The notes below the pieces were generated by a model that had not been told where the DNA came from, did not search any database, and worked only from the letters and a program-made list of their open reading frames with translations. Below, one piece after another: positions 2,793-60,100 of a stretch of DNA of 64,000 nt. Location: assembly GCF_030684315.1 (NCBI RefSeq), contig NC_081388.1:8664093-8728092 (forward strand), given 5' to 3'. The stretch comes from Stegostoma tigrinum. Its lineage: Eukaryota. Position 1 is the stretch's first letter; each line of letters begins with the position of its first letter. The position numbers and the translations under genes were made by a program.

Positions 2793-2952
2793 AATAAAAT
2801 GTGAGGCTGGATGAACGCAGCAGGCCAAGCAGCATCTCAGGAGTACAAAAGCTGACGTTTCGGGCCTAGACCCTTCACCAGAGAGGATTTTGTGCTCCTG
2901 AGATGCTGCTTGGCCTGCTGTGTTCATCCAGCCTCAGATTTTATTATCTCTC
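2793..2952. mobile_element. Unit-1-specific 160 bp fold-back insertion derived from a Penelope-like element terminus, with a 14 bp target-site duplication
   Basis: Arms 2793-2850 and 2888-2945 are reverse complements (55/58 nt). Flanks are TCATTACTGTGGGT (2779-2792) and TCATTACTATGGGT (2953-2966). The equivalent site in other units is empty (e.g. ~21520 TTCATTACGATGGGTGG). Confidence 0.8.
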
Positions 2953-3385: not shown

Positions 3386-3830
3386 GCATTCAATCACAGG
3401 CAGAGAAAGAACAATACTGTTGAGCTTGGGGCTTGTCCTCTGACAGTGTTATTCAATCATTTCAGTCTGGAGGAAAAGGAAAAGGTGTTCGTAGTTTTGG
3501 GTGTGTGGAAGTATTACTGTGTTCGTCCTTTCTCTGAGAAGCCACTGGGGCTAACTTTCTATGACCTCACACCATGCTTCAGTCCCTCTTTGTGGGCAAG
3601 CACTGTTGGAGCTACGTTATGTTGGGTAAAAAGTTAAATTCATCACAATTCCGCTCACACATTTGCTTGTAAATTAAATATACTCCAGGTACTGTGTTCA
3701 AAGAAGCACAGGTGAATGTTTGCTGGCATTCTGATCACACATTTTCCCTCAGTAAGCACCTCTGTGGGATCTTTCCTGCTGCTTTTCCCTACATTACCAC
3801 AGATGCCACACTTCAAATTTCACCCCATTC

Positions 3831-4202
3831 AGGTTGGAGATGTGCTCACTGAGCGAACAGGTTTGGATGCAAACGTTTCATCACCCTGCTCGGTAACGTC
3901 GTCAGTGCACCTCTGGGGAAGCGATGGTGTTCAGTCCCACTAGTTAATTCTGTGTCTCAGCTTGCTGGAATGGTTGGGATTCCTTCCGGTTCTGTTTCTC
4001 AGTGGTTTGTATATTGGGACAGTTCAATCACTGAGGAACAGAACTGGAAGCTATACCAGCCATTCCAGCAAACAGAGACATATAAATAACAAGTGGGACA
4101 GAACACCATCGCTTCCCCAGAGGCACACTGATGATGTTATCTACCAGGGCGATGAAATGTTTGCACCCAAAGCCAACGGCTCGGCCAGCATGTCTACAAC
4201 CT
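3831..4202. repeat. ~370 bp imperfect inverted repeat of Penelope-like pseudo-LTRs, each arm with a hammerhead-like core; copies at 12915-13286, 22396-22767, 31511-31882, 40592-40963, 50071-50443, 59182-59553
   Basis: The reverse complement of 3831-4008 aligns with 4027-4202. For example CTCTGGGGAAGCGATGGTGTTC pairs with GAACACCATCGCTTCCCCAGAG, and TTCCGGTTCTGTTTCTCAGTG with CACTGAGGAACAGAACTGGAA. Confidence 0.85.
3865..3911 (-). ncRNA. Minimal type-I hammerhead ribozyme-like motif (Penelope-associated)
   Basis: The minus strand reads GGUGCA-CUGACGA-C-GUUACC-GAGCAG-GGUGAU-GAA-ACGU-U-UGCAUC. This gives a 6 bp stem I, a CUGANGA core, a 6 bp stem II (with G-U pairs), GAAA, a palindromic ACGU mini-stem III and a GUU cleavage triplet. 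Confidence 0.6.
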
Positions 4203-4247
4203 CATTCACAACCCCAACTACCAATCTCCTCAAACTTTTCACCCCAG

Positions 4248-5340
4248 TGTCTGCGAATCGCTTTCAGTACGTTCCTAACTTGAAAAGAGACAAGATCAGA
4301 ATGCATTTACTTTAAGGTGGTTTGGACAGTAACCAGTCCTTCACCACCCCTTAAAGGCTCACAGTAAGCTTGGCTCTTTGTTACATTGTTGGCTTGACAT
4401 TGGCCGGGCAGCTGTTGTTCTGGGTAGACGAGGATGCTTCAGGAAGAATGTAGACAGAAAGCAATGTCTTTTCATGGAATCAGATGGCACCAGTAACCAG
4501 CCACTGAGGACTTGGGATTGAGAGCAGGGTTGGCACTCAGTGCGTCAGCTCATCTCATCTATTGGCACGGACCCTGGCATTGCCTTATGCATGTGGATAT
4601 CTCACCTGATTCCTTTTGCCTTGCTGCTTCCAATGACTCTTTCAAAGTTTGACGCTTTCAAATCTGTTTTTACTGCGATCCTGCGACTGCACCAATCTGA
4701 AAGTAAACAGGGCCGAATGGTACATGTTGTATACATTGCCCTGCCTACCACCCTCAGATTGTGGTCAGGGCACTTCATTGCTACGAGCCTCTCGTCGTGA
4801 CCAACCCGGCTGGTGGGCAAGTAAAGTGACCAATGAGTCTCAACCAGAAGAGGCCATTTTTTTCGAAAAAACGAGGTCTCATTTAGTGAGTGACAGTGAT
4901 CACAAACCACCTAATTTACCAAGTTGCTCCCACAATGATGAGGAAATCTAGGTTAAGATCTCTAACCTCTTTGGGTTCCAAGATCCTCAAGACATGATTG
5001 GATAAAACTCTTCCTAGAGTTAAATCGTTCGAAATTATTACTTCATACAACATCTCCATCAAACCTTACCCTATTTTGCACGGACCATTAAATTAACCGT
5101 GACCCCACATTCCCCCAAGTCTCCGATTTTACAACTTCATGGCATCCTGGAGGTTTTGTAATTCTCCCTGAATTCATTCTCTTCAGACTTGGCAGATTGG
5201 TGGGTCTTTGACTTGAGGGCTATTGGCCTTGATCCTATTCTAAAGCTCTACATCAGCAGACTGCTGGAAATGCTGGTGTTTTGAGCTGAGGTTGAAACTC
5301 GTGCTACCCCAGGGGCGTTACTCTATCACCTTAGCTGGAG
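4248..5340 (-). mobile_element. Possible LTR-retrotransposon (Gypsy-like) 3' end relic: pol tail, PPT and a putative LTR at 4248-5109; present in every unit
   Basis: On the minus strand, KRMNSGRITKPP resembles the Gypsy pol C-terminal 'RSGR..KPP' motif. It is followed by the purine tract GGGGGAA, then TGTGGGG (5109), and a candidate end ...GCAGACA (4248) preceded by AGTAAA. Motif-level evidence only. Confidence 0.3.
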
Positions 5341-8050: not shown

Positions 8051-10859
8051 ATGGGGGATTTTGTAGTGAAGGGTTTGTTTCCTGTGCTGGTGTTAGTTGG
8101 AGCTGTTTGTTGCTCTGAAACTTGGCAACAGTTTCTGAGCCAGAGGATTCCATGGAGAAGAGTGAGAGCCACCCCTGTACCTGAGAGAGTTTCTCCTCAC
8201 GGGGGTTCCATTGGTTCCAGTTTCAGAATGTCTGAGGGTGGGAGTGTGTCCCCACTGCAGACTGTGATGGTGCAGTGTGGAGAGCAGAAGCTGCAGGTCA
8301 GGGCCCAGTTGGATTTATTTGGAACCAGGCACCTAATTAATGCTGCTGACCTGACCCTGGGGACAGCAGGCTGTCAGCCAACCAGGGTCTACCCTGAGAA
8401 CCACACTGTCCTCTTTGACTATGGCCTGCATGAGTGTGGCAGCAGATTGCAGGTAATGGGAGTCCTTCATAGTTGCTGGAAGCTTTAACTGTGGTGTTTC
8501 TTGCTGTGATGCTAGCTGCAGTGCTGTTGGTATAGGGTCTAATTTCTCTTGGTCTCAAACTGAGATTCTCTCTCTTAGATTAAGACAGGTTTGGGAACCA
8601 CAGAACCATTTAAACCTGTGTCCTCAGGGCCTGTAAGTTATTTCTGGTTCTCCTGAACTTCATCAGCTCTATGTTTTGAGGCTTGTTTTCTCTTTAGTCA
8701 CTCCTCTAAACCCCATCCTGTGTGGATCATACTCTTTAACAAAAGGTTAAGAGGGGCCTTGCTCTTGAATGTCTCCAAATTCCCACTTTCATTGCCTTTG
8801 GAATAACTTGGCTCCTGGGATAAGTGTTCTGTTTCTCTATTATTAGATTATCCCCTGTTCTGTTTTGAGTACGTTGCTGATTAGTTTGGTCTTATCCTTG
8901 TGATAGACTCAAATATTGGAGCTTTGCTGATATCTGAGGAAACCAGAATGTGTCTGAGAGAATCACAACCATGTTCTAGTTCCTTCAATGTTTCTTTTCC
9001 CCACAAAACCCATCTATCTGCTTCAACAAATGTGTATTTCCAATGTAAATGCATTCCCTATCTGATCATTGCTGATCTATTGCAAGATGCACGACCTAGT
9101 CCAATTGGTCCAAAATGACTAACCCCTGAGCTATGATTTATTGCCCCTAAAACTGGTCTCACTGCTTGTGTGCAAACAAGCAGCTGGCACCTGCCAAGCT
9201 CCTGAAGGACATCATCCCATTCCCACAATTCCTTATGTTGCATAGCACCTTCAATTCCAATTGTTTCCATTCTTTAATCTGCTGTCTTTCAGATGACTGG
9301 AGACTTCCTGATCTATACCACCCATCTGACCCACATCCCAAACTATCCTGGGTCTGTCATTGTGAGAACCAATGGAGCTGTCATTCCCATTGTGTGTCGT
9401 TATTTGAGGTGAGCCTTTGCTAGATTGTCAACATCATCTGTAGCTGTCACCTGACACTAGACTAAAATGGCTGCACTGTCTCTCCCCAGGACGGGCAATG
9501 TGAGCAGTGACCCCATCAAGCCCACCTGGATCCCATTCAGCTCCACCAGGTCTGGAGAAGGGCATCTGTCATTCTCCCTGCGTCTAATGAATGGTATGTG
9601 AGGGCTGGCTGGGGAGGGATCTCCTGGTGTCACTCAGTAGGTGCAACTCACACTAACCCTTGTCCTCTTGCATGTCAGGTGACTGGCTTACAGAGCGCAC
9701 TTCCACTGTCTACTCCCTGGGAGACCTCATTCACATTGAGGCATCTGTTTCAATGGACAACCACATGCCCCTGAAGCTGTACATTGACCGCTGTGTAGCT
9801 ACACTGAGCCCAGGCAAGGACTCCAGCCCCAGATACAGCATCATTGACTACAATGGGTAAGGAGCTCTCTGCTTTCTCCAGCTGCTCCCATCTCAATGAC
9901 TTCACTCCATTCACTTCATGGCCCTTTGTTCACCTGTAGTTGCCTCGTGGACAGCAAAGCTGAGGACTCCTTTTCAACCTTTGTGTTGCTGAGAGACCAG
10001 CGGGAGCCGGACAAGCTCAGGTTTGACCTGGATGCCTTCCGCTTCTATGGAGATGAACAATCCTTGGTAAGAGGAAGCTGCTGACTTAGCTTCTCCCCAC
10101 TGGGTGGGAGTGACTAAACACTGACTGACTTGTGCTGAATGTGTCCCTCAGATGTTCATCACCTGTCACCTGAAAGTTGTTGCGGTGGATCAGGGAGATT
10201 CCAGGAACAAAGCTTGTACTTTCCAGAAGCTGCACAAGATGTGTGTGTTTATCCCACTTGCTGCCCCTTAGTGATGTTGTTGGGGAGAGGTGATGCTCCA
10301 TGTGGTTGATGGGCTTTTTGTCTTGTTTAGCTGGAGCCCACTGGAGGAATCAACCAGTGACATTTGTGCCTGTTGCCATGTGGGGAACTGTGGTAGCACA
10401 AGGGAGATCATCTTCTCCTCCAGAGGAAGGAGAGACCTTGGACCTGAAGCTGGTAAGTCACTGACTCATGAGACTCTGGGGCTTTTCACGCTTTCCCTGA
10501 CCATGACCGTACTGTTCTTCCTGCAGAGAGTGAAGGTGGATTGAAGTGGGAGGGTGAGGCCTCGCTTGGCCCCCTGCTCATTCTGGATCCTGAGCTGACC
10601 AGCCTGGCAACTGAGCCCCTGACTGAGGATGAGCAAAGGATGCAGGAGATGTCTCCAGGCGGTGAGTTGCCTGACTGCTAGTTTGCCTCTTTGTCCCAGT
10701 TTCCATCAGTAACCATTGGTTTCTCCTTGCTGTGTAGGTGTGCAGTCTGAGCTGGTTGTGATGCTGTCCCTGACAGTGACAGCTGTCTCCCTGATCTCTG
10801 CTTCGTTGATGGCCTTGTTCCTCTACAGGAAGCACCAGCAAACTCTACTCAACTATTGA
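8051..10859 (+). CDS. zp3: Zona pellucida sperm-binding protein 3-like (ZPC), copy 2 (type B), apparently intact, 464 aa
   Basis: Exons 8051-8452, 9293-9408, 9490-9593, 9679-9856, 9940-10066, 10152-10240, 10331-10452, 10527-10661 and 10738-10859 sum to 1395 nt in frame. Kozak context ATCATGG and a signal peptide. ZP-N Cys in VQCGE, GCQP, HECGS and IVCRY; linker GNVSS/KPTW; ZP-C motifs [39 protein letters not shown] and NKACTF. Then [20 protein letters not shown] and a TM helix. Confidence 0.92.
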
Positions 10860-13800
10860 TGGAATAGTCCAATAAAGCAGTGACTCCTTGTCTCTTGTTT
10901 CTTGTGTCTAGTTTGTCTCTGCATCATCATGAGTCGATACCCCTGGGGTTATGCTATGAACCCCCAGAAAACCTTCTCAATCCATTTTTATTGAATGTAC
11001 TGTTTAGGCTTCACTGCTTGCAGTGACCACAGGGTCTTGTTGGCAACACAAAATGGGACTTCCACGCCTGAGATCACTGTTCAGACCATTTCCCTCTATA
11101 ATAGGAACACTGGTGTGAACTGTTCTGGGTTTGCTCCCATTACATCTGGTCCTTTGTGAATAAGGATGCCTGGGTCTTCAGAGTAAGAAACATGGATCAG
11201 ACTGACCCTCCATGCTGTATCTGTGCCTCTTTACCTGGCTACTGGGCATGGGTGGCATGGAGGCTTAGTGGTTTACACTGCTGCAATGCCACACCAGGAA
11301 CCAGAGTTCAATCTGCCTGCTGGTGGTTGCACACTCACCCTGTGACTGGGTTTAGTGCTCAGGTGTTTTCCCCTAGCCCAAAGGTGCGCCAGTCCTGGTG
11401 AATTTTCCGTGGGGAAAGTGCCCCAGAGTACAGGGATGTATATGCACTCTGGGTCAGAGATGGGGGGACGTAGGGTTAAAGGGTGTTGGGCTGTTCTTCG
11501 GAATGTTTGGGGTAGCAGTGTGGACTAAAGGGGACATTTGGGCTGCTTACATACTGGTGAGAATTCTAAGGGGTAAATCAAACTGGTGCATGACACACAT
11601 TGCTCTGGCTCTATCTTGTTAATATTTTAAAAAAATCTCAGTTCAATATCCGCCTTCTCTTCTAAATGCTTGTTTTTTCTCTCCACTGGGCTTTCTCCTG
11701 GGAGTTTTGGTCTGATATCAGATAGTCCTGACTCAAGCATCTACTCTGCAAATCGCATCTGAATGTGAGTGCAGGATGGGGGCCCTGTTTTGGAAAGTAG
11801 AGGCCTGAAGATGCCTTCAGGCCCTCGTTAACAACTGGGGCCTGAAGGTGAACAATATCAAGTATCACCCCTTCTGCTCCAAAAACTACACCCAGTTGCT
11901 GATGACCTAATTAGAAAGATGGCCGTAACACACATCTGAGAGTTACTGCCCAAGCACCTTTGTAAGCTTTAGCTGTTTAAAAACTCCATTACTGTGGTGG
12001 TGTGTTTCTCTATAATGTGTTCTCCTCCTGTAATATCTTCACACAAATGTTCTAAGATGTTTAGTGCCCTGGAGCGTTTCAGTAATCCTGTTTTGATTTA
12101 CATCAAGCTGGGCACCATCCATTGTGAAACAATTTTTAAAATAATTTCCTCACGGATGAGGGTGGCACAGGCTAGGTGCGTGTTTATTGGCCAGAGGCCA
12201 GCTGTAGTCCAGGCAAGGATGGCAGTTTCCTTCTGTAAAGGATGTTGGTGAACTAGATGGGTTTTCTCCCAACAATTGGTTACAGACTCTGTCATTATTG
12301 GACAGGTTAATCACTGATATTTTCAATGAATTTGCATTCCAGCATCTGCTGTGGTGGGATTTGACTCCAGCTCCTCAGAAAATCACCTGTTGTGTCTCTC
12401 GTTTAACTATAATACCACAAGGCCATCGTAATTACCCACGGCATTCTATCGCAGGCAGAGAAAGAACAATATTGTTGAGCTTGGAGCTTGTCCTCTGACA
12501 GTGTTATTCAATCATTTCAGTCTGGAGGAAAACGAAAGGGTGTTCTGTGCATCTGAGCACTTAGTTTTGGGTGTGTGGAAGTATTACTGTGTTCATCCTT
12601 TCTCTGAGAAGCCACTGGGGCTAACTTTCTATGATCTCGCACCATGCTTCAGTACCTCTTTGTGGGCAAGCACTGTTGGAGCTACGTTATGTTGGGTAAA
12701 AAGTTAAATTCATCACCATTCCGCTCACATATTTGCTTGTAAATTAAATATACTCCAGGCACTGTGTTCAAAGAAGCACAGGTGAATGTTTGCTGGCATT
12801 CTGATCAGTCGTTTTCCCTCAGTGAGCACCCCTGTAGGATCTTGCTGTGCCCAGCTTTCCTGCTGCTTCTCCCTACATTACCACAGATGCCACACTTCAA
12901 ATTTCACCCCATTCAGGTTGGAGATGTGCTCACTGAGCGAACAGGTTTGGATGCAAACGTTTCATCACCCTGCTCGGTAACGTCGTCAGTGCACCTCTGG
13001 GGAAGCGATGGTGTTCTGTCCTACTAGTTAATTCTGTGTCTCGGCTTGCTGGAATGGTTGGGATTCCTTCCGGTTCTGTTTCTCAGTGGTTTGTACATTG
13101 GGACAGTTCAATCACTGAGGAACAGAACTGGAAGCTATACCAGCCATTCCAGCAAACAGAGACATATAAATAACAAGTGGGACAGAACACCATCGCTTCC
13201 CCAGAGGCACACTGATGATATTATCTACCAGGGCGATGAAATGTTTGCACCCAAAGCCAACGGCTCGGCCAGCATGTCTACAACCTCATTCACAACCCCA
13301 ACTACCAATCTCCTCAAACTTTTCACCCCAGTGTCTGCGAATCGCTTTCAGCACGTTCTTAACTTGAAAAGAGACACGATCAGAATGCATTTACTTTAAG
13401 GTGGTTTGGACAGTAACCAGTCCTTCACCACCCCTGAAAGGCTCACAGTAAGCTTGGCTCTTTGTTACATTGTTGGCTTGACATTGGCCGGGCAGCTGTT
13501 GTTCTGGGCAGATGAGGAAGCAGCAGGAAGAATGTAGACAGAAAGCAATGTCTTTTCATGGAATCAGATGGCACCAGTAACCAGCCACTGAGGACTTGGG
13601 ATTGAGAGCAGGGTTGGCACTCAGTGCGTCAGCTCATCTCATCTATTGGCACGGACCCTGGCATTGCCTTATGCATGTGGATATCTCACCTGATTCCTTT
13701 TGCCTTGCTGCTTCCAATGACTCTTTCAAAGTTTGACGCTTTCAAATCTGTTTTTACTGCGATCCTGCGACTGCACCAATCTGAAAGTAAACAGGGCCGA

Positions 13801-20363: not shown

Positions 20364-23300
20364 TGGAATAGTCCAATAAAAGAGTGACTCCTTGTCTCTT
20401 GTTTCTTGCACCTAGTTTGTTTCTGCATCCTCACGCGAGTTGTTATCCCTGGGGTTATGCTATGAACCCCCAGAAAGCTTTTCTGGCTGCTATTTTTACT
20501 GAATGCAAACAGTGATGCCTAAACAGTACAGTGACTACAGGGTCTTGTTGTCAACACAAAATGGGACTTCCACATCTGAGATCACTATTCACACCATTCC
20601 CTCTATAATAGGAACACTGGTGTGAACTGTCCTGAGTTTGCTCCAATTACATCTGGTCCTTTGCGAATAAGGACACCTGGGTGTTCAGAGTAAGAAACGT
20701 TGATCAGACTGGCCTTCCATGCTGTATCCCTGCCTCTTTACTTAGATGCTAGGCAGGGGTGGCATGGAGGCTTAGTGGCTTACACTGTTGCAACGCAACA
20801 CCAGGAGCCTGAGTACATTCTGCCTGCTGGTTGTTGCACATTATTGCTGTGACTGGGAGTGCTCAGGTATCTTTTCCCCTCCGCCCAAAGGGGTGCCAGT
20901 CACAGTGAATTGGCCATGGGGAAAGTGCACCAGAGTACAGGGATATTAGGCCCTGTGGGTTAGATATGGGGGATGTAGGGTTAAAGGGCATGGGCCTGGT
21001 CAGGCCCCTCTTCAGAGGGGTTGGGGCAGCTGTGTGGACTCAATGGGGCAATTGCACTGCTTCCATAATGTGAGAATTCTATGGGGTAAATCAAACTGGT
21101 GCCTGAGACACATTGCTCTGTCTCGTATTGTATTCTTCAGAAAGAATCTCAGTCCAATGTCCACCTTCTCTTCGAAATGTTAGTTTTGTCTTTTTCTCCA
21201 CTGGGCTTTCTTCCCTGGGGTTTTGGTCTGAGGTCAGATAGTCCTGACTCAACTGAGTCAAGCATCTACTGTACAAATTGCAGCTGAATGTGAATGCGGG
21301 CTGGGGGCCCTGTTTTGGAATGTACAGGCCTTAAGACTCCTCCACACTTCAGGCCCTCATTAACAACTGGGGTCTAGAGGTGAACAATAATCAAGTGTCA
21401 TCCCTTCTGCTCCAAAAACAATACCCAGTTGCTGATGACCTAATTATAAAGATGGCCACAACACACATCTGAAAGTTACTGCCCAAGCACCTTTGTAAGC
21501 TTTAGCTGTTTAAACACTTCATTACGATGGGTGGTGTGTTTCTCTATAATGTGTTCTCCTCCTGTATACCTTCACACAAATGTTCTGGGATGTTCAGTGC
21601 ACTGGAGCGTTTCAGTAATCCTGTTTTGATTTACATCAAGCAGTGCACCAATCATTGTCAAACAATTTTTAAAATAATTTCCTCATGGATGAGGGTGGCA
21701 CAGGCTAGGTGCGTGTTTATTGTCCAGAGGGCAGCTGTAGTCCAGGCAAGGATGGCAGTTTCATTCTGTAAAGGATGTTGGCGAACTAGATGGGTTTTCT
21801 CCCAACAATTGGTAACAGTCTCTGTCATTATTGGACTGTTTAATCCCGGATATTTTCATTGAATTTGAATTCCAGCTCCCCGGAACATCACCTGTGTCTC
21901 TGGTTAAACTGCCCAACTATAATACCACAAGGCCATCGTAATTACCCACGGCATTCAATCACAGGCAGAGAAAGAACAATACTGTTGAGCTTGGGGCTTG
22001 TCCTCTGACAGTGTTATTCAATCATTTCAGTCTGGAGGAAAAGAAAAAGGTGTTCTTAGTTTTGGGTGTGTGGAAGTATGACTGTGTTCGTCCTTTCTCT
22101 GAGAAGCCACTGGGGCTAACTTTCTATGACCTCGCACCATGCTTCAGTACCTCTTTGTGGGCGAGCACTGTTGGAGCTACATTATGTTGGGTAAAAAGTT
22201 AAATTCATCACCATTCCGCTCACATATTTGCTTGTAAATTAAATATACTCCAGGCACTGTGCTCAAAGAAGCACAGGTGAATGTTTGCTGGCATTCTGAT
22301 CACACATTTTCCCTCAGTGAGCACCACTGTGGGATCTTTCCTGCTGCTTTTCCCTACATTACCACAGATGCCACACTTCAAATTTCACCCCATTCAGGTT
22401 GGAGATGTGCTCACTGAGCTAACAGGTTTGGATGCAAACGGTTCATCACCCTGCTCGGTAACGTCGTCAGTGCACCTCTGGGGAAGCGATGGTGTTCTGT
22501 CCTACTAGTTAATTTTGTGTCTCGGCTTGCTGGAATGGTTGGGATTCCTTCCGGTTCTGTTTCTCAGTGGTTTGTATATTGGGACAGTTCAATCACTGAG
22601 GAACAGAACTGGAAGCTATACCAGCCATTCCAGCAAACAGAGACATATAAATAACAAGTGGGACAGAACACCATCGCTTCCCCAGAGGCACACTGATGAT
22701 GTTATCTACCAGGGCAATGAAATGTTTGCACCCAAAGCCAACGGCTCGGCCAGCATGTCTACAACCTCATTCACAACCCCAACTACCAATCTCCTCAAAC
22801 TTTTCACCCCAGTGTCTGCGAATCGCTTTCAGCACGTTCCTAACTTGAAAAGAGACACGATCAGAATGCATTTGCTTTAAGGTGGTTTGGACAGTAACCA
22901 GTCCTTCACCACCCCTTAAAGGCTCACAGTAAGCTTGGCTCTTTGTTACATTGTTGGCTTGACATTGTCCGGGCAGCTGTTGTTCTGGGCAGATGAGGAA
23001 GCTTCAGGAAGAATGTAGACAGAAAGCAATGTCTTTTCATGGAATCAGATGGCACCAGTAACCAGCCACTGAGGACTTGGGATTGAGAGCAGGGTTGGCA
23101 CTCAGTGCGTCAGCTCATCTCATCTATTGGCACGGACCCTGGCATTGCCTTATGCATGTGGATATCTCACCTGATTCCTTTTGCCTTGCTGCTTCCAATG
23201 ACTCTTTCAAAGTTTGACGCTTTCAAATCTGTTTTTACTGCGATCCTGCGACTGCACCAATCTGAAAGTAAACAGGGCCGAATGGTACATGTTGTATACA

Positions 23301-29433: not shown

Positions 29434-32400
29434 ACTCTACTCAACGATTGATGGAATAGTCCAATAAAGCAGTGACTCCTTGTCTCTTGTTTCTTGTGTC
29501 TAGTTTGTCTCTGCATCATCATGAGTCGCTACCCCGGGGGTTATGCTATGAACCCCCAGAAAACCTTCTGAATCTATTTTTATTGAATGTACTGTTTAGG
29601 CTTCACTGCTTGCAGTGACCACAGGGTCTTGTTGGCAACACAAAATGGGACTTCCACGTCTGAGATCACTGTTCAGACCATTTCCCTCTATAATAGGAAC
29701 ACTGGTGTGAACTGTCCTGGGTTTGCTCCCATTACATCTGGTCCTTTGTGAATAAGGATGCCTGGGTGTTCAGAGTAAGAAACATGGATCAGACTCACCC
29801 TCCATGCTGTATCTGTGCCTCTTTACCTGGCTGCTGGGCATGGGTGGCATGGAGGCTTAGTGGTTTACACTGCTGCAATGCCACACCAGGAACCAGAGTT
29901 CAATCTGCCTGCTGGTGGTTGCACACTCACCCTGTGACTGGGTTTAGTGCTCAGGTGTTTTCCTCCAGCCCAAAGGTGCGCCAGTCCTGGTGAATTTTCC
30001 GTGGGGAAAGTGCACCAGAGTACAGGGATGTATCGGCACACTGGGTCAGAGACGGCGTGGGACGTAGGGTTAAAGCGTGTTGGGCTGTTCTTTGGAATGT
30101 TTGGGGTAGCAGTGTGGACTAAAGGGGACAATTGGGCTGCTTACATACTGGTGAGAATTCTAAGGGGTAAATCAAACTGGTGCATGACACACATTGCTCT
30201 GGCTCTATCTTGTTAATATTAAAAAAAAATCTCAGTTCAATATCTGCCTTCTCTTCTAAATGCTTGTTTTTTCTCTCCACTGGGCTTTCTCCTGGGAGTT
30301 TTGGTCTGATATCAGATAGTCCTGACTCAAGCATCTACTCTGCAAATCGCATCTGAATGTGAGTGCAGGATGGGGGCCCTGTTTTGGAAAGTCGAGGCCT
30401 GAAGATGCCTTCAGGCCCTCGTTAACAACTGGGGCCTGAAGGTGAACAATAATCAAGTGTCATCCCTTCTGCTCCAAAAACTACACCCAGTTGCTGATGA
30501 CCTAATTATAAAGATGGCCACTACACACATCTGAGAGTTACTGCCCAAGCACCTTTGTAAGCTTTAGCTGTTTAAAAACTCCATTACTGTGGTGGTGTGT
30601 TTTTCTATAATGTGTTCTCCTCCTGTAATACCTTCACACAAATGTTCTAAGATGTTTAGTGCCCTTGAGCGTTTCAGTAATCCTGTTTTGATTTACATCA
30701 AGCTGGGCACCATCCATTGTCAAACAATTTTTAAAATAATTTCCTCATGGATGAGGGTGGCACAGGCTAGGTGCGTGTTTATTTTCCAGAGGGCAGCTGT
30801 AGTCCAGGCAAGGATGGCAGTTTCATTCTGTAAAGGATGTTGGTGAACGAGATGGGTTTTCTTCCCAACAATTGGTAACAGACTCTGTCATTATTGGACA
30901 GGTTAATGACTGATATTTTCAATGAATTTGCATTCCAGCATCTGCTGTGGTGGGATTTGACACCAGCTCCTCAGAAAATCACCTGTTGTGTCTCTGGTTT
31001 AACTATAATACCACAAGGCCATCGTAATTACCCACGGCATTCAATCACAGGCAGAGAAAGAACAATATTGTTCAGCTTGGAGCTTGTCCTCTGACAGTGT
31101 TATTCAATCATTTCAGTCTGGAGGAAAACGAAAGGGTGTTCTGTGCTTCTGAGCACTTCGTTTTGGGTGTGTGGAAGTATTACTGTGTTCATCCTTTCTC
31201 TGAGAAGCCACTGGGGCTAACTTTCTATGATCTCGCACCATGCTTCAGTCCCTCTTTGTGGGCAAGCACTGTTGGAGCTACGTTATGTTGGGTAAAAAGT
31301 TAAATTCATCACCATTCCGCTCACATATTTGCTTGTAAATTAAATATACTCCAGGCACTGTGTTCAAAGAAGCACAGGTGAATGTTGGCTGGCATTCTGA
31401 TCACTCATTATCCCTCAGTGAGCACCTCTGTGGGATATTGCTGTGCCCAGCTTTCCTGCTGCTTCTCCCTACATTACCACAGATGCCACACTTCAAATTT
31501 CACCCCATTCAGGTTGGAGATGTGCTCACTGAGCTAACAGGTTTGGATGCAAACGTTTCATCACCCTGCTCGGTAACGTCGTCAGTGCACCTCTGGGGAA
31601 GCGATGGTGTTCTGTCCTACTAGTTAATTCTGTGTCTCGGCTTGCTGGAATGGTTGGGATTCCTTCCGGTTCTGTTTCTCAGTGGTTTGTACATTGCGAC
31701 AGTTCAATCACTGAGGAACAGAACTGGAAGCTATACCAGCCATTCCAGCAAACAGAGACATATAAATAACAAGTGGGACAGAACACCATCGCTTCCCCAG
31801 AGGCACACTGATGATGTTATCTACCAGGGCGATGAAATGTTTGCACCCAAAGCCAACGGCTCGGCCAGCATGTCTACAACCTCATTCACAACCCCAACTA
31901 CCAATCTCCTCAAACTTTTCACCCCAGTGTCTGCGAATCGCTTTCAGCACGTTCCTAACTTGAAAAGAGACACGATCAGAATGCATTTACTTTAAGGTGG
32001 TTTGGACAGTAACCAGTCCTTCACCACCCCTTAAAGGCTCACAGTAAGCTTGGCTCTTTGTTACATTGTTGGCTTGACATTGGCCGGGCAGCTGTTGTTC
32101 TGGGCAGATGAGGAAGCAGCAGGAAGAATGTAGACAGAAAGCAATGTCTTTTCATGGAATCAGATGGCACCAGTAACCAGCCACTGAGGACTTGGGATTG
32201 AGAGCAGGGTTGGCACTCAGTGCGTCAGCTCATCTCATCTATTGGCACGGACCCTGGCATTGCCTTATGCATGTGGATATCTCACCTGATTCCTTTTGCC
32301 TTGCTGCTTCCAATGACTCTTTCAAAGTTTGACGCTTTCAAATCTGTTTTTACTGCGATCCTGCGACTGCACCAATCTGAAAGTAAACAGGGCCGAATGG

Positions 32401-38533: not shown

Positions 38534-41500
38534 TGGAATAGTCCAATAAAGCAGTGACTCCTTGTCTCTTGTTTCTTGTGTCTAGTTTGTCTCTGCATCA
38601 TCATGAGTCGATACCCCTGGGGTTATGCTATGAACCCCCCAGAAAACCTTCTAAATCCATTTTTATTGAATGTACTGTTTAGGCTTCACTGCTTGCAGTG
38701 ACCACAGGGTCTTGTTGGCAACACAAAATGGGACTTCCACGCCTGAGATCACTGTTCAGACCATTTCCCTCTATAATAGGAACACTGGTGTGAACTGTCC
38801 TGGGTTTGCTCCCATTACATCTGGTCCTTTGTGAATAAGGATGCCTGGGTGTTCAGAGTAAGAAACATGGATCAGACTGACCCTCCATGCTGTATCTGTG
38901 CCTCTTTACCTGGCTACTGGGCATGGGTGGCATGGAGGCTTAGTGGTTTACACTGCTGCAATGCCACACCAGGAACCAGAGTTCAATCTGCCTGCTGGTG
39001 GTTGCACACTCACCCTGTGACTGGGTTTAGTGCTCAGGTGTTTTCCCCTAGCCCAAAGGTGCGCCAGTCCTGGTGAATTTTCCGTGGGGAAAGTGCACCA
39101 GAGTACAGGGATGTATATGCACTCTGGGTCAGAGATGGGGGGACGTAGGGTTAAAGGGTGTTGGGCTGTTCTTCGGAATGTTTGGGGTAGCAGTGTGGAC
39201 TAAAGGGGACATTTGGGCTGCTTACATACTGGTGAGAATTCTAAGGGGTAAATCAAACTGGTGCATGACACACATTGCTCTGGCTCTATCTTGTTAATAT
39301 TCAAAAAAAATCTCAGTTCAATATCCGCCTTCTCTTCTAAATGCTTGTTTTTTTCTCTCCACTGGGCTTTCTCCTGGGAGTTTTGGTCTGATATCAGATA
39401 GTCCTGACTCAAGCATCTACTCTGCAAATCGCATCTGAATGTGAGTGCAGGATGGGGGCCCTGTTTTGGAAAGTAGAGGCCTGAAGATGCCTTCAGGCCC
39501 TCGTTAACAACTGGGGCCTGAAGGTGAACAATAATCAAGCGTCATCCCTTCTGCTCCAAAAACTACACCCAGTTGCTGATGACCTAATTACAAAGATAGC
39601 CACAACACACATTTGACAGTTACTGCCCAAGCACCTTTGTAAGCTTTAGCTGTTTAAAAACTCCATTACTGTGGTGGTGTGTTTCTCTATAATGTGTTCT
39701 CCTCCTGTAATATCTTCACACAAATGTTCTACGATGTTTAGTGCCCTGGAGCGTTTCAGTAATCCTGTTTTGATTTACATCAAGCAGGGCACCAACCATT
39801 GTCAAACAATTTTTATAATAATTTCCTCATGGATGAGGGTGGCACAGGCTAGGTGCGTGTTTATTGTCCAGAGGGCAGCTGTAGTCCAGGCAAGGATGGC
39901 AGTTTCCTTCTGTAAAGGATGTTGGTGAACTAGATGGGTTTTCTCCCAACAATTGGTTACAGACTCTGTCATTATTGGACAGGTTAATGACTGATATTTT
40001 CAATGAATTTGCATTCCAGCATCTGCTATGGTGGGATTTGACACCAGCTCCTCAGAAAATCACCTGTTGTGTCTCTGGTTTAACTATGATACCACAAGGC
40101 CATCGTAATTACCCACGGCATTCAATCACAGGCAGAGAAAGAACAATATTGTTGAGCTTGGAGCTTGTCCTCTGACAGTGTTATTCAATCATTTCAGTCT
40201 GGAGGATAACGAAGGGGTGTTCTGTGCATCTGAGCACTTAGTTTTGGGTGTGTGGAAGTATTACTGTGTTCATCCTTTCTCTGAGAAGCCACTGGGGCTA
40301 ACTTTCTATGATCTCGCACCATGCTTCAGTACCTCTTTGTGGGCAAGCACTGTTGGAGCTACGTTATGTTGGGTAAAAAGTTAAATTCATCACCATTCCA
40401 CTCACATATTTGCTTGTAAATTAAATATACTCCAGGCACTGTGTTCAAAGAAGCACAGGTGAATGTTTGCTGGCATTCTGATCAGTCGTTTTCCCTCAGT
40501 GAGCACCTCTGTGGGATCTTGCTGTGCCCAGCTTTCCTGCTGCTTCTCTCTACATTACCACAGATGCAACACTTCAAATTTCACCCCATTCAGGTTGGAG
40601 ATGTGCTCACTGAGCGAACAGGTTTGGATGCAAACGTTTCATCACCCTGCTCGGTAACGTCGTCAGTGCACCTCTGGGGAAGCGATGGTGTTCTGTCCTA
40701 CTAGTTAATTCTGTGTCTCAGCTTGCTGGAATGGTTGGGATTCCTTCCGGTTCTGTTTCTCAGTGGTTTGTACATTGCGACAGTTCAATCACTGAGGAAC
40801 AGAACTGGAAGCTATACCAGCCATTCCAGCAAACAGAGACATATAAATAACAAGTGGGACAGAACACCATCGCTTCCCCAGAGGCACACTGATGATGTTA
40901 TCTACCAGGGCGATGAAATGTTTGCACCCAAAGCCAACGGCTCGGCCAGCATGTCTACAACCTCATTCACAACCCCAACTACCAATCTCCTCAAACTTTT
41001 CACCCCAGTGTCTGCGAATCGCTTTCAGCACGTTCTTAACTTGAAAAGAGACACGATCAGAATGCATTTACTTTAAGGTAGTTTGGACAGTAACCAGCCC
41101 TTCACCACCCCTTAAAGGCTCACAGTAAGCTTGGCTCTTTGTTACATTGTTGGCTTGACATTGTCCGGGCAGCTGTTGTTCTGGGTAGATGAGGAAGCTT
41201 CAGGAAGAATGTAGACAGAAAGCAATGTCTTTTCATGGAATCAGATGGCACCAGTAACCAGCCACTGAGGACTTGGGATTGAGAGCAGGGTTGGCACTCA
41301 GTGCGTCAGCTCATCTCATCTATTGGCACGGACCCTGGCATTGCCTTATGCATGTGGATATCTCACCTGATTCCTTTTGCCTTGCTGCTTCCAATGACTC
41401 TTTCAAAGTTTGACGCTTTCAAATCTGTTTTTACTGCGATCCTGCGACTGCACCAATCTGAAAGTAAACAGGGCCGAATGGTACATGTTGTATACATTGC

Positions 41501-48037: not shown

Positions 48038-51000
48038 TGGAATACTCCAATAAAAGAGTGACTCCTTGTCTCTTGTTTCTTGCACCTAGTTTGTTTCTGC
48101 ATCCTCACGCGAGTTGTTATCCCTGGGGTTATGCTATGAACCCCCAGAAAGCTTTTCTGGCTGCTATTTTTACTGAATGCAAGCAGTGATGCCTAAACAG
48201 TACAGTGACTACAGGGTCTTGTTGGCAACACAAAATGGGACTTCCACATCTGAGATCACTATTCACACCATTCCCTCTATAATAGGAACACTGGTGTGAA
48301 CTGTCCTGAGTTTGCTCCAATTACATCTGGTCCTTTGCGAATAAGGACACCTGGGTGTTCAGCGTAAGAAACGTTGATCAGACTGGCCTTCCATGCTGTA
48401 TCCCTGCCTCTTTACTTAGATGCTAGGCAGGGGTGGCATGGAGGCTTAGTGGCTTACACTGTTGCAACGCAACACCAGGAGCCTGAGTACATTCTGCCTG
48501 CTGGTTGTTGCACATTATTGCTGTGACTGGGAGTGCTCAGGTATCTTTTCCCCTCCGCCCAAAGGGGTGCCAGTCACAGTGAATTGGCCATGGGGAAAGT
48601 GCACCAGAGTACAGGGATATGTAGGCCCTGTGGGTTAGATATGGGGGATGTAGGGTTAAAGGGCATGGGCCTGGTCAGGACCCTCTTCAGAGGGGTTGGG
48701 GCAGCTGTGTGGACTCAATGGGGCAATTGCACTGCTTCCATAAAGTGAGAATTCTATGGGGTAAATCAAACTGGTGCCTGAGACACATTGCTCTGTCTCG
48801 TATTGTATTCTTCAGAAAGAATCTCAGTCTAATGTCCACCTTCTCTTCGAAATATTAGTTTTGTCTTTTTCTCCACTGGGCTTTCTTCCCTGGGGTTTTG
48901 GTCTGAGGTCAGATAGTCCTGACTCAACTGAGTCAAGCATCTACTGTACAAATTGCAGCTGAATGTGAATGCGGGCTGGGGGCCCTGTTTTGGAATGTAC
49001 AGGCCTTAAGACTCCTCCACACTTCAGGCCCTCATTAACAACTGGGGTCTAGAGGTGAACAATAATCAAGTGTCATCCCTTCTGCTCCAAAAACTACACC
49101 CAGTTGCAGATGACCTAATTATAAAGATGGCCACAACACACATCTGAGAGTTACTGCCCAAGCACCTTTGTACGCTTTAGCTGTTTAAACACTTCATTAC
49201 GATGGGTGGTGTGTTTCTCTATAATGTGTTCTCCTCCTGTATACCTTCACACAAATGTTCTGGGATGTTCAGTGCCCTGGAGCGTTTCAGTAATCCTGTT
49301 TTGATTTACATCAAGCAGTGCACCAATCATTGTCAAACAATTTTTAAAATAATTTCCTCATGGATGAGGGTGGCACAGGCTAGGTGCGTGTTTATTGTCC
49401 AGAGGGCAGCTGTAGTCCAGGCAAGGATGGCAGTTTCATTCTGTAAAGGATGTTGGCGAACTAGATGGGTTTTCTCCCAACAATTGGTAACAGTCTCTGT
49501 CATTATTGGACTGTTTAATCCCGGATATTTTCATTGAATTTGAATTCCAGCTCCCCGGAACATCACCTGTGTCTCTGGTTAAACTGCCCAACTATAATAC
49601 CACAAGGCCATCGTAATTACCCACGGCATTCAATCACAGGCAGAGAAAGAACAATACTGTTGAGCTTGGGGCTTGTCCTCTGACCGTGTTATTCAATCAT
49701 TTCAGTCTGGAGGAAAAGAAAAAGGTGTTCTTAGTTTTGGGTGTGTGGAAGTATGACTGTGTTCGTCCTTTCTCTGAGAAGCCACTGGGGATAACTTTCT
49801 ATGATCTCGCACCATGCTTCAGTACCTCTTTGTGGGCGAGCACTGTTGGAGCTACATTATGTTGGGTAAAAAGTTAAATTCATCACCATTCCGCTCACAT
49901 ATTTGCTTGTAAATTAAATATACTCCAGGCACTGTGCTCAAAGAAGCACAGGTGAATGTTTGCTGGCATTCTGATCACTCATTTTCCCTCAGTGAGCACC
50001 ACTGTGGGATCTTTCCTGCTGCTTTTCCCTACATTACCACAGATGCCACACTTCAAATTTCACCCCATTCAGGTTGGAGATGTGCTCACTGAGCTAACAG
50101 GTTTGGATGCAAACGGTTCATCACCCTGCTCGGTAACGTCGTCAGTGCACCTCTGGGGAAGCCAATGGTGTTCTGTCCTACTAGTTAATTCTGTGTCTCA
50201 GCTTGCTGGAATGGTTGGGATTCCTTCCGGTTCTGTTTCTCAGTGGTTTGTACATTGGGACAGTTCAATCACTGAGGAACAGAACTGGAAGCTATACCAG
50301 CCATTCCAGCAAACAGAGACATATAAATAACAAGTGGGACAGAACACCATCGCTTCCCAAGAGGCACACTGATGATGTTATCTACCAGGGCAATGAAATG
50401 TTTGCACCCAAAGCCAACGGCTCGGCCAGCATGTCTACAACCTCATTCACAACCCCAACTACCAATCTCCTCAAACTTTTCACCCCAGTGTCTGCGAATC
50501 GCTTTCAGCACGTTCTTAACTTGAAAAGAGACACGATCAGAATGCATTTACTTTAAGGTGGTTTGGACAGTAACCAGCCCTTCACCACCCCTGAAAGGCT
50601 CACAGTAAGCTTGGCTCTTTGTTCCATTGTTGGCTTGACATTGTCCGGGCAGCTGTTGTTCTGGGTAGATGAGGAAGCTTCAGGAAGAATGTAGACAGAA
50701 AGCAATGTCTTTTCATGGAATCAGATGGCACCAGTAACCAGCCACTGAGGACTTGGGATTGAGAGCAGGGTTGGCACTCAGTGCGTCAGCTCATCTCATC
50801 TATTGGCACGGACCCTGGCATTGCCTTATGCATGTGGATATCTCACCTGATTCCTTTTGCCTTGCTGCTTCCAATGACTCTTTCAAAGTTTGACGCTTTC
50901 AAATCTGTTTTTACTGCGATCCTGCGACTGCACCAATCTGAAAGTAAACAGGGCCGAATGGTACATGTTGTATACATTGCCCTGCCTACCACCCTCAGAT

Positions 51001-57103: not shown

Positions 57104-60100
57104 ACTCTACTCAACGATTGATGGAATAGTCCAATAAAGCAGTGACTCCTTGTCTCTTGTTTCTTGTGTCTAGTTTGTCTCTGCATCATCATGAGTCGAT
57201 ACCCCTGGGGGTTATGCTATGAACCCCCAGAAAACCTTCTGAATCTATTTGTATTGAATGTACTGTTTAGGCTTCACTGCTTGCAGTGACCACAGGGTCT
57301 TGTTGGCAACACAAAATGGGACTTCCACGCCTGAGATCACTGTTCAGACCATTTCCCTCTATAATAGGAACACTGGTGTGAACTGTCCTGGGTTTGCTCC
57401 CATTACATCTGGTCCTTTGTGAATAAGGATGCCTGGGTGTTCAGAGTAAGAAACATGGATCAGACTGACCCTCCATGCTGTATCTGTGCCTCTTTACCTG
57501 GCTGCTGGGTATGGGTGGCATGGAGGCTTAGTGGTTTACATGGCAGCAATGCCACACTAGGAACCAGAGTTCAAATTGCTGTGGGGTGGTAGTACACTCA
57601 CCCTGTGACTGGGTTTAGTGCTCAGGTGTTTTCCTCCAGCCCAAAGGTGCGCCAGTCCTGGTGAATTTTCCGTGGGGAAAGTGCACCAGAGTACAGGGAT
57701 GTATAGGCACTCTGGGTCAGAGACGGGGGGGACGTAGGGTTAAAGCGTGTTGGGCTGTTCTTTGGAATGTTTGGGGTAGCAGTGTGGACTAAAGGGGACA
57801 ATTGGGCTGCTTACATACTGGTGAGAATTCTAAGGGGTAAATCAAACTGGTGCATGACACACATTGCTCTGGCTCTATCTTGTTAATATTCAAAAAAAAT
57901 CTCAGTTCAATATCCGCCTTCTCTTCTAAATGCTTGTTTTTTTCTCTCTGCTGGGCTTTCTCCTGGGAGTTTTGGTCTGATATCAGCTAGTCCTGACTCA
58001 AGCATCTACTCTGCAAATCGCATCTGAATGTGAGTGCAGGATGGGGGCCCTGTTTTGGAAAGTAGAGGCCTGAAGATGCCTTCAGGCCCTCGTTAACAAC
58101 TGGGGCCTGAAGGTGAACAATAATCAAGTGTCATCCCTTCTGCTCCAAAAACTACACCCAGTTGCTGATGACCTAATTATAAAGATGGCCACAACACACA
58201 TCTGAGAGTTACTGCCCAAGCACCTTTGTAAGCTTTAGCTGTTTAAAAACTCCATTACTGTGGTGGTGTGTTTCTCTATAATGTGTTCTCCTCCTGTAAT
58301 ACCTTCACACAAATGTTCTAAGATGTTTAGTGCCCTGGAGCGTTTCAGTAATCCTGTTTTGATTTACATCAAGCTGGGCACCAACCATTGTCAAACAATT
58401 TTTAAAATAATTTCCTCATGGATGAGGTTGGCACAGGCTAGGTGCGTGTTTATTGTCCAGAGGGCAGCTGTAGTCCAGGCAAGGATGGCAGTTTCATTCT
58501 GTAAAGGATGTTGGTGAACGAGATGGGTTTTCTTCCCAACAATTGGTAACAGACTCTGTCATTATTGGACAGGTTAATGACTGATATTTTCAATGAATTT
58601 GCATTCCAGCATCTGCTGTGGTGGGATTTGACACCAGCTCCTCAGAAAATCACCTGTTGTGTCTCTGGTTTAACTATAATACCACAAGGCCATCGTAATT
58701 ACCCACGGCATTAAATCACAGGCAGAGAAAGAACAATATTGTTGAGCTTGGAGCTTGTCCTCTGACAGTGTTATTCAATCATTTCAGTCTGGAGGAAAAC
58801 GAAAGGGTGTTCTGTGCTTCTGAGCACTTCGTTTTGGGTGTGTGGAAGTATTACTGTGTTCATCCTTTCTCTGAGAAGCCACTGGGGCTAACTTTCTATG
58901 ATCTCGCACCATGCTTCAGTCCCTCTTTGTGGGCAAGCACTGTTGGAGCTACGTTATGTTGGGTAAAAAGTTAAATTCATCACCATCCCGCTCACATATT
59001 TGCTTGTAAATTAAATATACTCCAGGCACTGTGTTCAAAGAAGCACAGGTTAATGTTGGCTGGCATTCTGATCACTCATTATCCCTCAGTGAGCACCTCT
59101 GTGGGATATTGCTGTGCCCAGCTTTCCTGCTGCTTCTCCCTACATTACCACAGATGCCACACTTCAAATTTCACCCCATTCAGGTTGGAGATGTGCTCAC
59201 TGAGCGAACAGGTTTGGATGCAAACGGTTCATCACCCTGCTCGGTAACGTCGTCAGTGAACCTCTGGGGAAGCGATGGTGTTCTGTCCTACTAGTTAATT
59301 CTGTGTCTCGGCTTGCTGGAATGGTTGGGATTCCTTCCGGTTCTGTTTCTCAGTGGTTTGTATATTGGGACAGTTCAATCACTGAGGAACAGAACTGGAA
59401 GCTATACCAGCCATTCAAGCAAACAGACACATATAAATAACAAGTGGGACAGAACACCATCGCTCACCAAGAGGCACACTGATGATGTTATCTACCAGGG
59501 CGATGAAATGTTTGCACCCAAAGCCAACGGCTCGGCCAGCATGTCTACAACCTCATTCACAACCCCAACTACCAATCTCCTCAAACTTTTCACCCCAGTG
59601 TCTGCGAATCGCTTTCAGCACGTTCTTAACTTGAAAAGAGACACGATCAGAATGCATTTACTTTAAGGTGGTTTGGACAGTAACCAGCCCTTCACCACCC
59701 CTTAAAGGCTCACAGTAAGCTTGGCTCTTTGTTACATTGTTGGCTTGACATTGTCCGGGCAGCTGTTGTTCTGGGTAGACGAGGAAGCTTCAGGAAGAAT
59801 GTAGACAGAAAGCAATGTCTTTTCATGGAATCAGATGGCACCAGTAACCAGCCACTGAGGACTTGGGATTGAGAGCAGGGTTGGCACTCAGTGCGTCAGC
59901 TCATCTCATCTATTGGCACGGACCCTGGCATTGCCTTATGCATGTGGATATCTCACCTGATTCCTTTTGCCTTGCTGCTTCCAATGACTCTTTCAAAGTT
60001 TGACGCTTTCAAATCTGTTTTTACTGCGATCCTGCGACTGCACCAATCTGAAAGTAAACAGGGCCGAATGGTACATGTTGTATACATTGCCCTGCCTACC

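What the first reader, a model, noticed from the sequence alone, without database searches (positions are those of the whole stretch)
3831..4202. Each unit carries a ~370 bp hairpin with hammerhead-ribozyme-like cores on opposite strands
Seen: a long inverted repeat. The minus-strand arm has a complete minimal type-I hammerhead fold (GGUGCA/UGCAUC stem I, CUGACGA, GUUACC/GGUGAU stem II, GAA-ACGU-U). The plus-strand arm (4128-4161, CUGAUGA...GAAAUGUU) is more decayed. The minus-strand core is intact in units 1, 2, 4 and 5 but GAAA is changed to GAAC in units 3, 6 and 7. Known: Penelope pLTR hammerheads with a palindromic ACGU stem III are thought to cleave as dimers. Inference: array amplification placed this module ~2.2-2.5 kb downstream of every zp3 gene. 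Read-through would form long dsRNA (endo-siRNA or ADAR substrate in oocytes), and antisense transcripts could self-cleave before reaching the gene. It may equally be a passenger.
Basis: partly seen in the sequence, partly recalled or inferred. Interest (0 to 1): 0.7.

Follow-up and report, generated by a model that had tools for sequence, protein, structure and literature searches.

The report
Old Penelope insertion in shark zp3 array
The hairpin is real and has the known head-to-head layout of a jumping-gene (likely Penelope-type) insertion; it likely landed once, long ago, beside a shark egg-coat gene and was copied along as a passenger when that gene multiplied, so it is ordinary.

Summary
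The hairpin and both hammerhead cores are real in 7 of 7 units, and the GAAA-to-GAAC change is in units 3, 6 and 7. That is the published layout of Penelope-like insertions (inverted pLTR, 31-bp tail, 9-bp TSD; PMC3846280). The arms differ by 20%, the array copies by 1.6%, so it likely predates the zp3 amplification. No sign of selection: 10 of 15 variants break pairs, none compensate, 3 of 7 cores are broken, with no link to gene integrity. The two cores lie on opposite strands, and the hairpin is predicted to abolish the ribozyme fold. A younger insertion of the same design sits in unit 1 only. This scan has noted this type often on other DNA (336 findings, at least 26 genomes). Verdict: passenger; a low-level double-stranded RNA role is not excluded.

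The parts
3818..3827 (+). left copy of 10-bp direct repeat (likely target-site duplication)
   Evidence: exact 10-bp repeat with 4237-4246, in 7 of 7 units; 44 of 5000 control pairs reach 10 bp
3828..4028 (-). inverted arm: 5'-truncated retroelement end, from about -129 to +72 relative to hammerhead A9; its 5' end makes up the apparent loop
   Evidence: extension through the 'loop' read by hand from the X9 loose-end row at 4018
3866..3911 (-). minimal type-I hammerhead, stems I and II of 6 pairs, ACGU, predicted cut 3872/3871; A15.1-to-C in units 3, 6, 7
4026..4236 (+). direct arm: 5'-truncated retroelement end, from -108 to +103 relative to A9
4122..4167 (+). decayed minimal hammerhead; ATG at 4134-4136 at the start of stem II
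4206..4236 (+). 31-nt one-sided extension ('tail'), 81% A+C
4237..4246 (+). right copy of the 10-bp direct repeat
12912..13320 (.). copy of the insertion, unit 2 (minus core intact)
22393..22801 (.). copy, unit 3 (A15.1-to-C)
31508..31916 (.). copy, unit 4 (minus core intact)
40589..40997 (.). copy, unit 5 (minus core intact)
50068..50477 (.). copy, unit 6 (A15.1-to-C)
59179..59587 (.). copy, unit 7 (A15.1-to-C and broken stem-I closing pair)
8051..10859 (+). context: ZP3-like gene of unit 2, 9 exons, open frame of 464 codons; six further copies upstream of the other hairpins
2793..2952 (.). internal control: younger insertion of the same design from another family, unit 1 only, between 14-bp repeats (2779-2792, 2953-2966; 13 of 14 alike); empty site in 6 of 6 other units

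Best explanation
The 409-bp hairpin is two head-to-head truncated ends of a high-copy shark repeat between 10-bp direct repeats; it is likely a single old Penelope-like retroelement insertion that was likely copied passively into every unit when the zp3 gene was amplified, and it likely has no selected function. How it was likely made (inferred): the element's enzyme cut both DNA strands about 10 bp apart and copied the same RNA region from each cut end, starting at two internal sites 31 nt apart; both copies stopped early (about 108 and 129 nt upstream of the ribozyme core) and were joined at their 5' ends with a 2-3 nt overlap. The hammerheads are there because the motif lies about 70-100 nt inside the copied end. 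Since then the arms have drifted 20% apart. Shown: anatomy, repeat status, divergence, variants. Inferred: Penelope identity of the parent, the two-strand priming route (about 0.6 given the insertion reading), order of events, neutrality.
For: Anatomy: 10-bp flanking repeat, one-sided 31-nt extension, head-to-head arms; PMC3846280 describes Pen2a_Av with inverted pLTR, 31-bp tail, 9-bp TSD (passages) and PMC8557442 gives this as typical (passages). Repeat status: in run X1 summed contig depth is 1,850-29,462 in the 7 bins over 3816-4263 against 37-44 in the adjoining bins, with the same rise in X6 and X9 (not a copy number); 4 of the 12 phmmer hits to the right-arm peptide are whale-shark gene models, and all 4 match both arms at 45-67% identity, E 1e-9 to 1e-16. 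One template: at 4116/3917 both arms carry a letter that 76-99% of the family depth lacks. Layout like Anolis Poseidon: ATG at the start of stem II, cut 28 nt on (26 there), A+C-rich tail; that enzyme cuts and extends both strands and starts at two internal sites in vitro (PMC11167929). Age: arms differ at 36 of 177 sites, array copies by 1.6%. Neutrality: of 15 variable arm sites 10 break a pair, 1 restores, 4 are neutral, 0 compensate (classified by hand; p 0.17 against the neutral share); hammerhead 2 of 46 variable against 15 of 363 in the rest (p 1.0); core state unlinked to gene state (2, 2, 2, 1; p 1.0). Control: a second such insertion in unit 1 only, with empty sites.
Against: No full-length parent with RT and GIY-YIG domains was found: Pfam gave nothing for the family peptides and the Atlas only leads at 0.84-0.89. 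No empty site was seen for this insertion, so its TSD rests on a repeat that 0.9% of control pairs match. All 11 core letters agree between the arms (p 0.08) and the left arm keeps 12 of 12 stem pairs. The insertion is less variable than its left flank (17 of 409 against 44 of 482, p 0.003), though not than its right flank. Seven closely related copies give little power to detect weak selection. A spliced zp3-expressing run has contigs past the poly(A) signal and one that ends 12 nt inside the left arm.
Confidence: 0.86

Rival explanations
1. Same origin, but now used: read-through from the strongly expressed zp3 copies folds into about 150 bp of imperfect double-stranded RNA in oocytes, feeding Dicer or ADAR, and either silences this repeat family or trims zp3 read-through.
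For: Predicted fold is very stable, 154 pairs, helices up to 25-32 bp on the + strand. Present in 7 of 7 units. Run X5 has spliced zp3 contigs, contigs at 10893-11191 beyond the poly(A) signal, and one 153-nt contig at 12757-12923.
Against: No compensatory change among 15 variable arm sites; 10 break pairs. Arms have drifted to 80%. The hairpin starts about 2.0 kb past the poly(A) signal. Presence in every unit is expected of anything older than the amplification. The X5 contig enters the insertion by only 12 letters, under the tool's 31-letter bar for bridging, and has no strand.
Confidence: 0.07
2. The hairpin is itself a non-autonomous fold-back element (MITE-like or retro-mobilised) that moved as a ready-made unit, rather than being built at this site.
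For: Flanked as a whole by one 10-bp repeat. Other fold-back contigs of the family exist in X1, X5, X6, X9 (opposite-strand joints).
Against: The 6 opposite-strand joints listed over this hairpin fall at different places (169 further joint rows not shown), the ends are asymmetric by 31 nt, and both arms are pieces of a longer coding-type element that continues upstream in other copies.
Confidence: 0.05
3. The minus-strand hammerhead is an active guard that cuts antisense RNA before it reaches zp3, helped by a partner ribozyme in trans.
For: Core complete in 4 of 7 units; stems I and II form in the isolated arm with probability 0.75-1.0.
Against: Broken in 3 of 7 units, 2 of them beside open genes. 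G-U at 10.1-11.1. In the isolated motif the core is predicted to mispair with the cleavage strand (-18.9 against -13.3 kcal/mol), and the double-hammerhead form (-26.3) is less stable than two mispaired monomers (-37.8) (tertiary contacts not modelled). An antisense RNA coming from downstream makes the complementary arm first, and the stems drop to 0.000. Published motifs of this kind cut poorly, and the Anolis one needs its protein (PMC4209133; PMC11167929).
Confidence: 0.02

Closest known systems
Inverted-pLTR insertions of endonuclease-bearing Penelope-like elements (Adineta Pen2a_Av, PMC3846280; typical layout in PMC8557442 Fig. 2 legend)
   Same: Head-to-head inverted 5'-truncated copy, 31-nt tail on one end only, 9-10 bp target-site duplication, minimal hammerhead in the repeat.
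   Different: Here both arms are truncated to about 200 nt, so no ORF is left; the insertion is old and multiplied by a host gene array.
Poseidon of Anolis carolinensis (PAc; PMC11167929)
   Same: ATG at the start of hammerhead stem II, cut site 26-28 nt downstream, A+C-rich tail between two end points.
   Different: The longer end lies at +103 here against +111 to +118; no protein-level link to PAc was tested.
Minimal hammerheads of metazoan PLEs (PMC4209133), including dual motifs 100-700 bp apart on opposite strands in Schistosoma
   Same: Core, extra nucleotide after A9, palindromic ACGU, long stem II; two motifs about 260 bp apart on opposite strands.
   Different: G-U instead of the conserved G10.1-C11.1 pair; plus-strand copy decayed; no shark example turned up in the listing.
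Non-LTR retrozymes (bioRxiv 10.64898/2026.07.22.740005)
   Same: Short, non-coding, type-I hammerhead, PLE-derived; reported in one chondrichthyan.
   Different: Retrozymes are head-to-tail tandem units; this is head-to-head, and its 9-kb repeat is the host gene array.
Amplified ZP3/ZP4 clusters of catfish (PMC13704971, abstract)
   Same: Tandemly amplified egg-coat genes with some pseudogenes.
   Different: Context only; the abstract says nothing of hairpins.

Membership tests
EN+ Penelope-like element insertion | inverted 5'-truncated copy joined head to head | tested here: met
   both arms read outward from the centre and match the same family region
EN+ Penelope-like element insertion | 30-40 bp tail at one end only | tested here: met
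   ends at +72 and +103 from A9, 31 nt apart
EN+ Penelope-like element insertion | short target-site duplication | tested here: met
   10-bp exact repeat at both ends, 44 of 5000 controls; no empty site seen
EN+ Penelope-like element insertion | hammerhead motif in the pLTR | tested here: met
EN+ Penelope-like element insertion | dispersed multi-copy family | tested here: met
   depth contrast in 3 large runs; 4 whale-shark gene models match both arms
EN+ Penelope-like element insertion | parent ORF with telomerase-like RT and GIY-YIG endonuclease | tested here: inconclusive
   no parent fetched; no Pfam hit for the family peptides; Atlas GIY-YIG leads at 0.84-0.89, family on 11-17% of members
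Minimal type-I hammerhead of PLEs | conserved core letters | tested here: met
   minus strand 4 of 7 units, plus strand 7 of 7
Minimal type-I hammerhead of PLEs | extra nucleotide between 9 and 10.1; palindromic 15.2-16.2 | tested here: met
   minus arm has both; plus arm has the extra letter but AUGU
Minimal type-I hammerhead of PLEs | G10.1-C11.1 pair | tested here: not met
   G-U in both arms
Minimal type-I hammerhead of PLEs | second same-strand motif near enough to form the dimer | tested here: not met
   partner in the hairpin is on the other strand; next same-strand copy 9.08-9.48 kb away
Minimal type-I hammerhead of PLEs | self-cleavage | not testable with these tools
   needs an in vitro assay or raw stranded reads
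Non-LTR retrozyme | head-to-tail tandem units each with a hammerhead | tested here: not met
   no tandem array up to period 500 here; arms are head to head
MITE (recalled definition) | symmetric terminal inverted repeats around a spacer, same ends in all copies | tested here: not met
   ends differ by 31 nt and the arms meet with no foreign spacer; other loci show other junctions

The most novel reading that the evidence does not exclude
A retroelement fold-back caught downstream of zp3 was multiplied with the gene, so that the oocyte's egg-coat array became an amplified, ovary-timed source of double-stranded RNA against that retroelement family: a host gene array doubling as a transposon-silencing locus.
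Probability: 0.06. Interest if true: 0.6.

Novelty: new member of a known kind. Interest (0 to 1): 0.14.

Why it matters
As a passenger it matters little: it is one of very many such shark insertions. It has two modest uses. It is a marker for dating and ordering the zp3 amplification across carpet sharks. And the two insertions in this window, with outer ends offset by 31 nt and 6-7 nt, fit the idea that Penelope-type enzymes copy one RNA from both cut strands, a step the field lists as unresolved (PMC11167929, PMC8557442). If the novel case were true it would link gene-array expansion to germ-line transposon defence.

Tried and rejected
Rfam scan: no hammerhead family up to E 1; 1 chance-level hit, Plant_SRP, 20.7 bits against a cut-off of 105, on the unit-1 insertion. 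No whole genome is held, so no genome-wide copy count or empty-site search. One search aligned the wrong segments for units 3 and 6; its diversity figures were dropped and redone. No RNA holder was listed by label; X5 and X20 proved spliced when laid. No X5 contig was listed across the hairpin, and bins 11198-12167 had no X5 cover: contigs show presence only, so this is not used as evidence. DNA patterns: 0 matches in metagenome contigs and viral contigs. Word-index protein search with the right-arm peptide: 0 of 6 candidates; with P0073 residues 1-62: 1 of 1, another chimeric gene model. 8 of the 12 phmmer hits were long proteins with short or repeated matches; the 4 of these that I scanned were bacterial-type repeat or cytochrome proteins, and all 8 were set aside. 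Related-locus scans: none confirmed; plasmids: none. The bacterial promoter scan does not apply to a shark and is not used. Whether organism B has the insertion at the same site could not be read: both flanks are covered, but no bridging contig or skipping joint was among the rows shown. Lunse et al. 2017 is not held; known only through the passage in PMC6765202. Earlier-findings look-ups by place and by sequence gave nothing. Rejected: assembly artefact (arms 20% apart; X1 contigs run from each flank far into an arm), retrozyme, MITE.

Full report
Setting. The window is a tandem array of 9.1-9.5 kb units, each with a nine-exon ZP3-like gene on the + strand (Pfam ZP-N and ZP-C; exon model from the spliced joints, applied). 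All but one of the 68 hits to exon 1 are named elasmobranch ZP3-like proteins; the closest are from whale shark (89%), bamboo shark (87%) and, over part of the query, Stegostoma (97-100%). The host is therefore a carpet shark, and ZP3 multiplication is common across sharks and rays. Penelope-like elements are reported as expanded in the whale shark (10.1101/443036, passages).

Observation. The inverted repeat is real: arms 3831-4007 and 4026-4202, 80% complementary, in 7 of 7 units, folding at -249 kcal/mol, z = -21. The minus-strand minimal hammerhead (3911-3866) has the stems described; 0 strict matches arose in 1000 simulated units. A15.1 is changed to C in units 3, 6 and 7, and unit 7 also loses the stem-I closing pair. 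The plus-strand core has 3 mismatches in 12 stem pairs and does not fold as a hammerhead. The hairpin starts 2.03-2.06 kb after the stop codon (2.20 kb in unit 1).

The hairpin is bracketed by an exact 10-bp direct repeat, 3818-3827 and 4237-4246, in 7 of 7 units; 44 of 5000 control pairs reach that length. The right arm runs on past the left: measured from hammerhead A9 the arms end at +103 and +72, a 31-nt one-sided extension that is 81% A+C. Both arms read outward from the centre. The 18-nt 'loop' appears not to be foreign DNA: the family's continuation beyond 4018 (X9 loose end, 43 records, agreement 0.77) matches 4020-4028 over 9 letters after a small gap, read by hand, so the left arm likely runs to 4028 and overlaps the right arm's start by 2-3 nt. 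Read backwards by hand, that loose end gives the residues that precede the left arm's peptide in the whale-shark models P0073, P0074 and P0077.

It is a dispersed repeat. In run X1 the summed contig depth is 1,850-29,462 in the 7 bins over 3816-4263 and 37-44 in the bins on either side; X6 and X9, of a second organism, show the same rise. The tool warns that this is no copy number; I use only the contrast and its edges. A phmmer search with the right-arm peptide gave 12 hits; 4 are whale-shark gene models, and all 4 match both arms at 45-67% identity. At 4116 and its mirror 3917 both arms share a letter that 76-99% of the laid family depth lacks, which points to one template or subfamily for both arms.

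Comparison with published Penelope insertions. PMC3846280 (passages) describes Pen2a_Av: an inverted pLTR, a 31-bp tail on one end, a 9-bp TSD, and head-to-head as the usual junction. PMC8557442 (passages) calls the inverted 5'-truncated copy and the one-sided 30-40 bp tail typical. PMC4209133 (parts 1-2 of 4) defines the minimal hammerhead, with the extra letter after A9, palindromic 15.2-16.2 and a conserved G10.1-C11.1 pair; it reports dual motifs 100-700 bp apart on opposite strands in Schistosoma, thousands of motifs in vertebrate genomes, no cleavage of a monomer and low cleavage of dimers. PMC11167929 (parts 1-2 of 4) shows that Anolis Poseidon protein cuts and extends both strands, starts copying at two internal sites that bound the tail, has its ATG at the start of stem II with the cut 26 nt on, and that its hammerhead does not cut without the protein. 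[quoted passage not shown] What I could not show is the parent ORF: Pfam is silent on the family peptides, and the Atlas offers GIY-YIG only as a lead, 0.84-0.89. Filing as Penelope-like thus rests on anatomy and ribozyme, not on RT or endonuclease.

Mechanism, inferred. Staggered cuts about 10 bp apart; copying of one RNA region from each cut strand, starting at +72 and +103; early stops at about -129 and -108; joining of the two 5' ends. This explains the TSD, the tail, the head-to-head layout, the unequal truncation and the shared letters. The 'twin-primed' wording is reused from earlier notes of this scan, which are not evidence; self-priming on an antisense template, proposed in PMC3846280, is a live alternative. 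A search for Penelope with 'twin priming' and 'inverted' listed 2 papers, neither on this by title and abstract.

Internal control. Unit 1 alone carries a second insertion of the same design from another, far more abundant family: 2793-2952, arms 95% alike, 14-bp flanking repeat (13 of 14), empty site in 6 of 6 other units, and a skipping contig in X1. Such fold-backs therefore land in this intergenic space by chance. The scan's index holds 336 findings with these words in at least 26 genomes.

Age and selection. The arms differ at 36 of 177 sites (21 transitions, 6 CpG-type; corrected distance 0.24), while the 7 array copies differ by 1.6%, so the insertion is likely much older than the common ancestor of these copies; homogenisation among units would blur the array's own age. 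Among units, 17 of 409 sites vary, against 14 of 500 in the right flank (p 0.28), 121 of 2245 in the longer right flank (p 0.33) and 44 of 482 in the left flank (p 0.003); the lowest diversity, 0 of 200, lies outside it at 4570-4769. Of 15 variable arm sites, 10 break a pair, 1 turns G-U into G-C, 4 are neutral and none compensate (classified by hand). The minus hammerhead varies like the rest of the insertion (2 of 46 against 15 of 363). Genes 2, 4, 6 and 7 are open; gene 3 has a stop at codon 301, gene 5 a 2-nt loss in exon 2, and the partial gene 1 has small exon losses and a changed acceptor. Core state is unlinked to gene state (open gene: 2 intact, 2 broken; damaged gene: 2 intact, 1 broken; p 1.0). 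Against neutrality: all 11 core letters agree between arms (p 0.08), the left arm keeps all 12 stem pairs, the left-flank contrast is significant, and seven near-identical copies have little power.

Could the ribozyme work? The two cores are on opposite strands, so they cannot dimerise in one RNA; the next same-strand core is over 9 kb away. On either strand the ribozyme-sense arm is the second one made, after its complement; in the whole hairpin the stem probabilities are 0.000, against 0.75-1.0 in the left arm alone. Even alone the core is predicted to mispair with the cleavage strand (-18.9 against -13.3 kcal/mol), and a double hammerhead (-26.3) is less stable than two such monomers (-37.8) (secondary structure only).

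RNA. No run was labelled RNA, but X5 and X20 hold spliced zp3 contigs: GT..AG joints at 8 of 8 introns in X5 (the exon model was taken from these joints, so the count is not independent). Tissue is not on record. X5 has contigs at 10893-11191, past the poly(A) signal at 10871, and one 153-nt contig at 12757-12923 that enters the insertion by 12 letters. This shows some sequence from the region in an RNA-type run; contigs give no strand, level or end, so read-through through both arms is neither shown nor excluded. Searches for shark with hammerhead ribozyme and retrotransposon, shark with zp3 and tandem, and Penelope with endo-siRNA, inverted repeat and ovary listed nothing on this locus by title and abstract; the library lacks most subscription papers, and no supplements were read. 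The retrozyme preprint was seen as part 1 of 5 and passages, PMC6765202 as passages, PMC13704971 as abstract.

Verdict. Observation confirmed; interpretation partly supported. Old Penelope-type fold-back insertion carried along by zp3 amplification, 0.86; co-opted dsRNA source, 0.07; mobile hairpin unit, 0.05; active antisense guard, 0.02. New member of a known kind; interest 0.14.

Noticed in passing
window 2793-2952 (unit 1 only): Younger fold-back insertion of a second, extremely abundant family; 14-bp TSD, empty sites in the other six units; one minus-strand minimal hammerhead with A6 changed to G (2878); the direct arm starts 3 nt after the predicted cut site and the inverted arm stops at the 5' edge of the motif; overhang only 6-7 nt.
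   Followed up: partly
window zp3 genes 1, 3 and 5: 3 of 7 gene copies examined look damaged: stop at codon 301 (gene 3), 2-nt loss in exon 2 (gene 5), small exon losses and a changed acceptor (partial gene 1); genes 4 and 7 end six codons early. Assembly errors not excluded.
   Followed up: partly
window 4570-4769 and equivalents: 0 of 200 sites vary among the seven units while stretches nearer the gene vary at 9-12%; a patchy pattern that suggests recent gene conversion.
   Followed up: no
window 8450-8632 (run X5): One contig splices in an extra short exon inside intron 1 (joints 8450-8577 and 8632-9293, both GT..AG).
   Followed up: no
proteins P0070, P0073, P0074, P0077, P0082: Predicted gene models (four named as whale shark) that contain pieces of this repeat family fused to PDZ, HEAT or receptor-L exons; likely gene-prediction artefacts.
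   Followed up: partly
protein P0008: A shark-like ZP3 (77% to exon 1) labelled Salmonella enterica on a 1.4-kb contig; likely contamination of a bacterial assembly.
   Followed up: no
window 3176-3239 (12168-12361 in unit 2): Another short high-copy repeat fragment between the gene and the hairpin, also present in runs X20 and X21.
   Followed up: no
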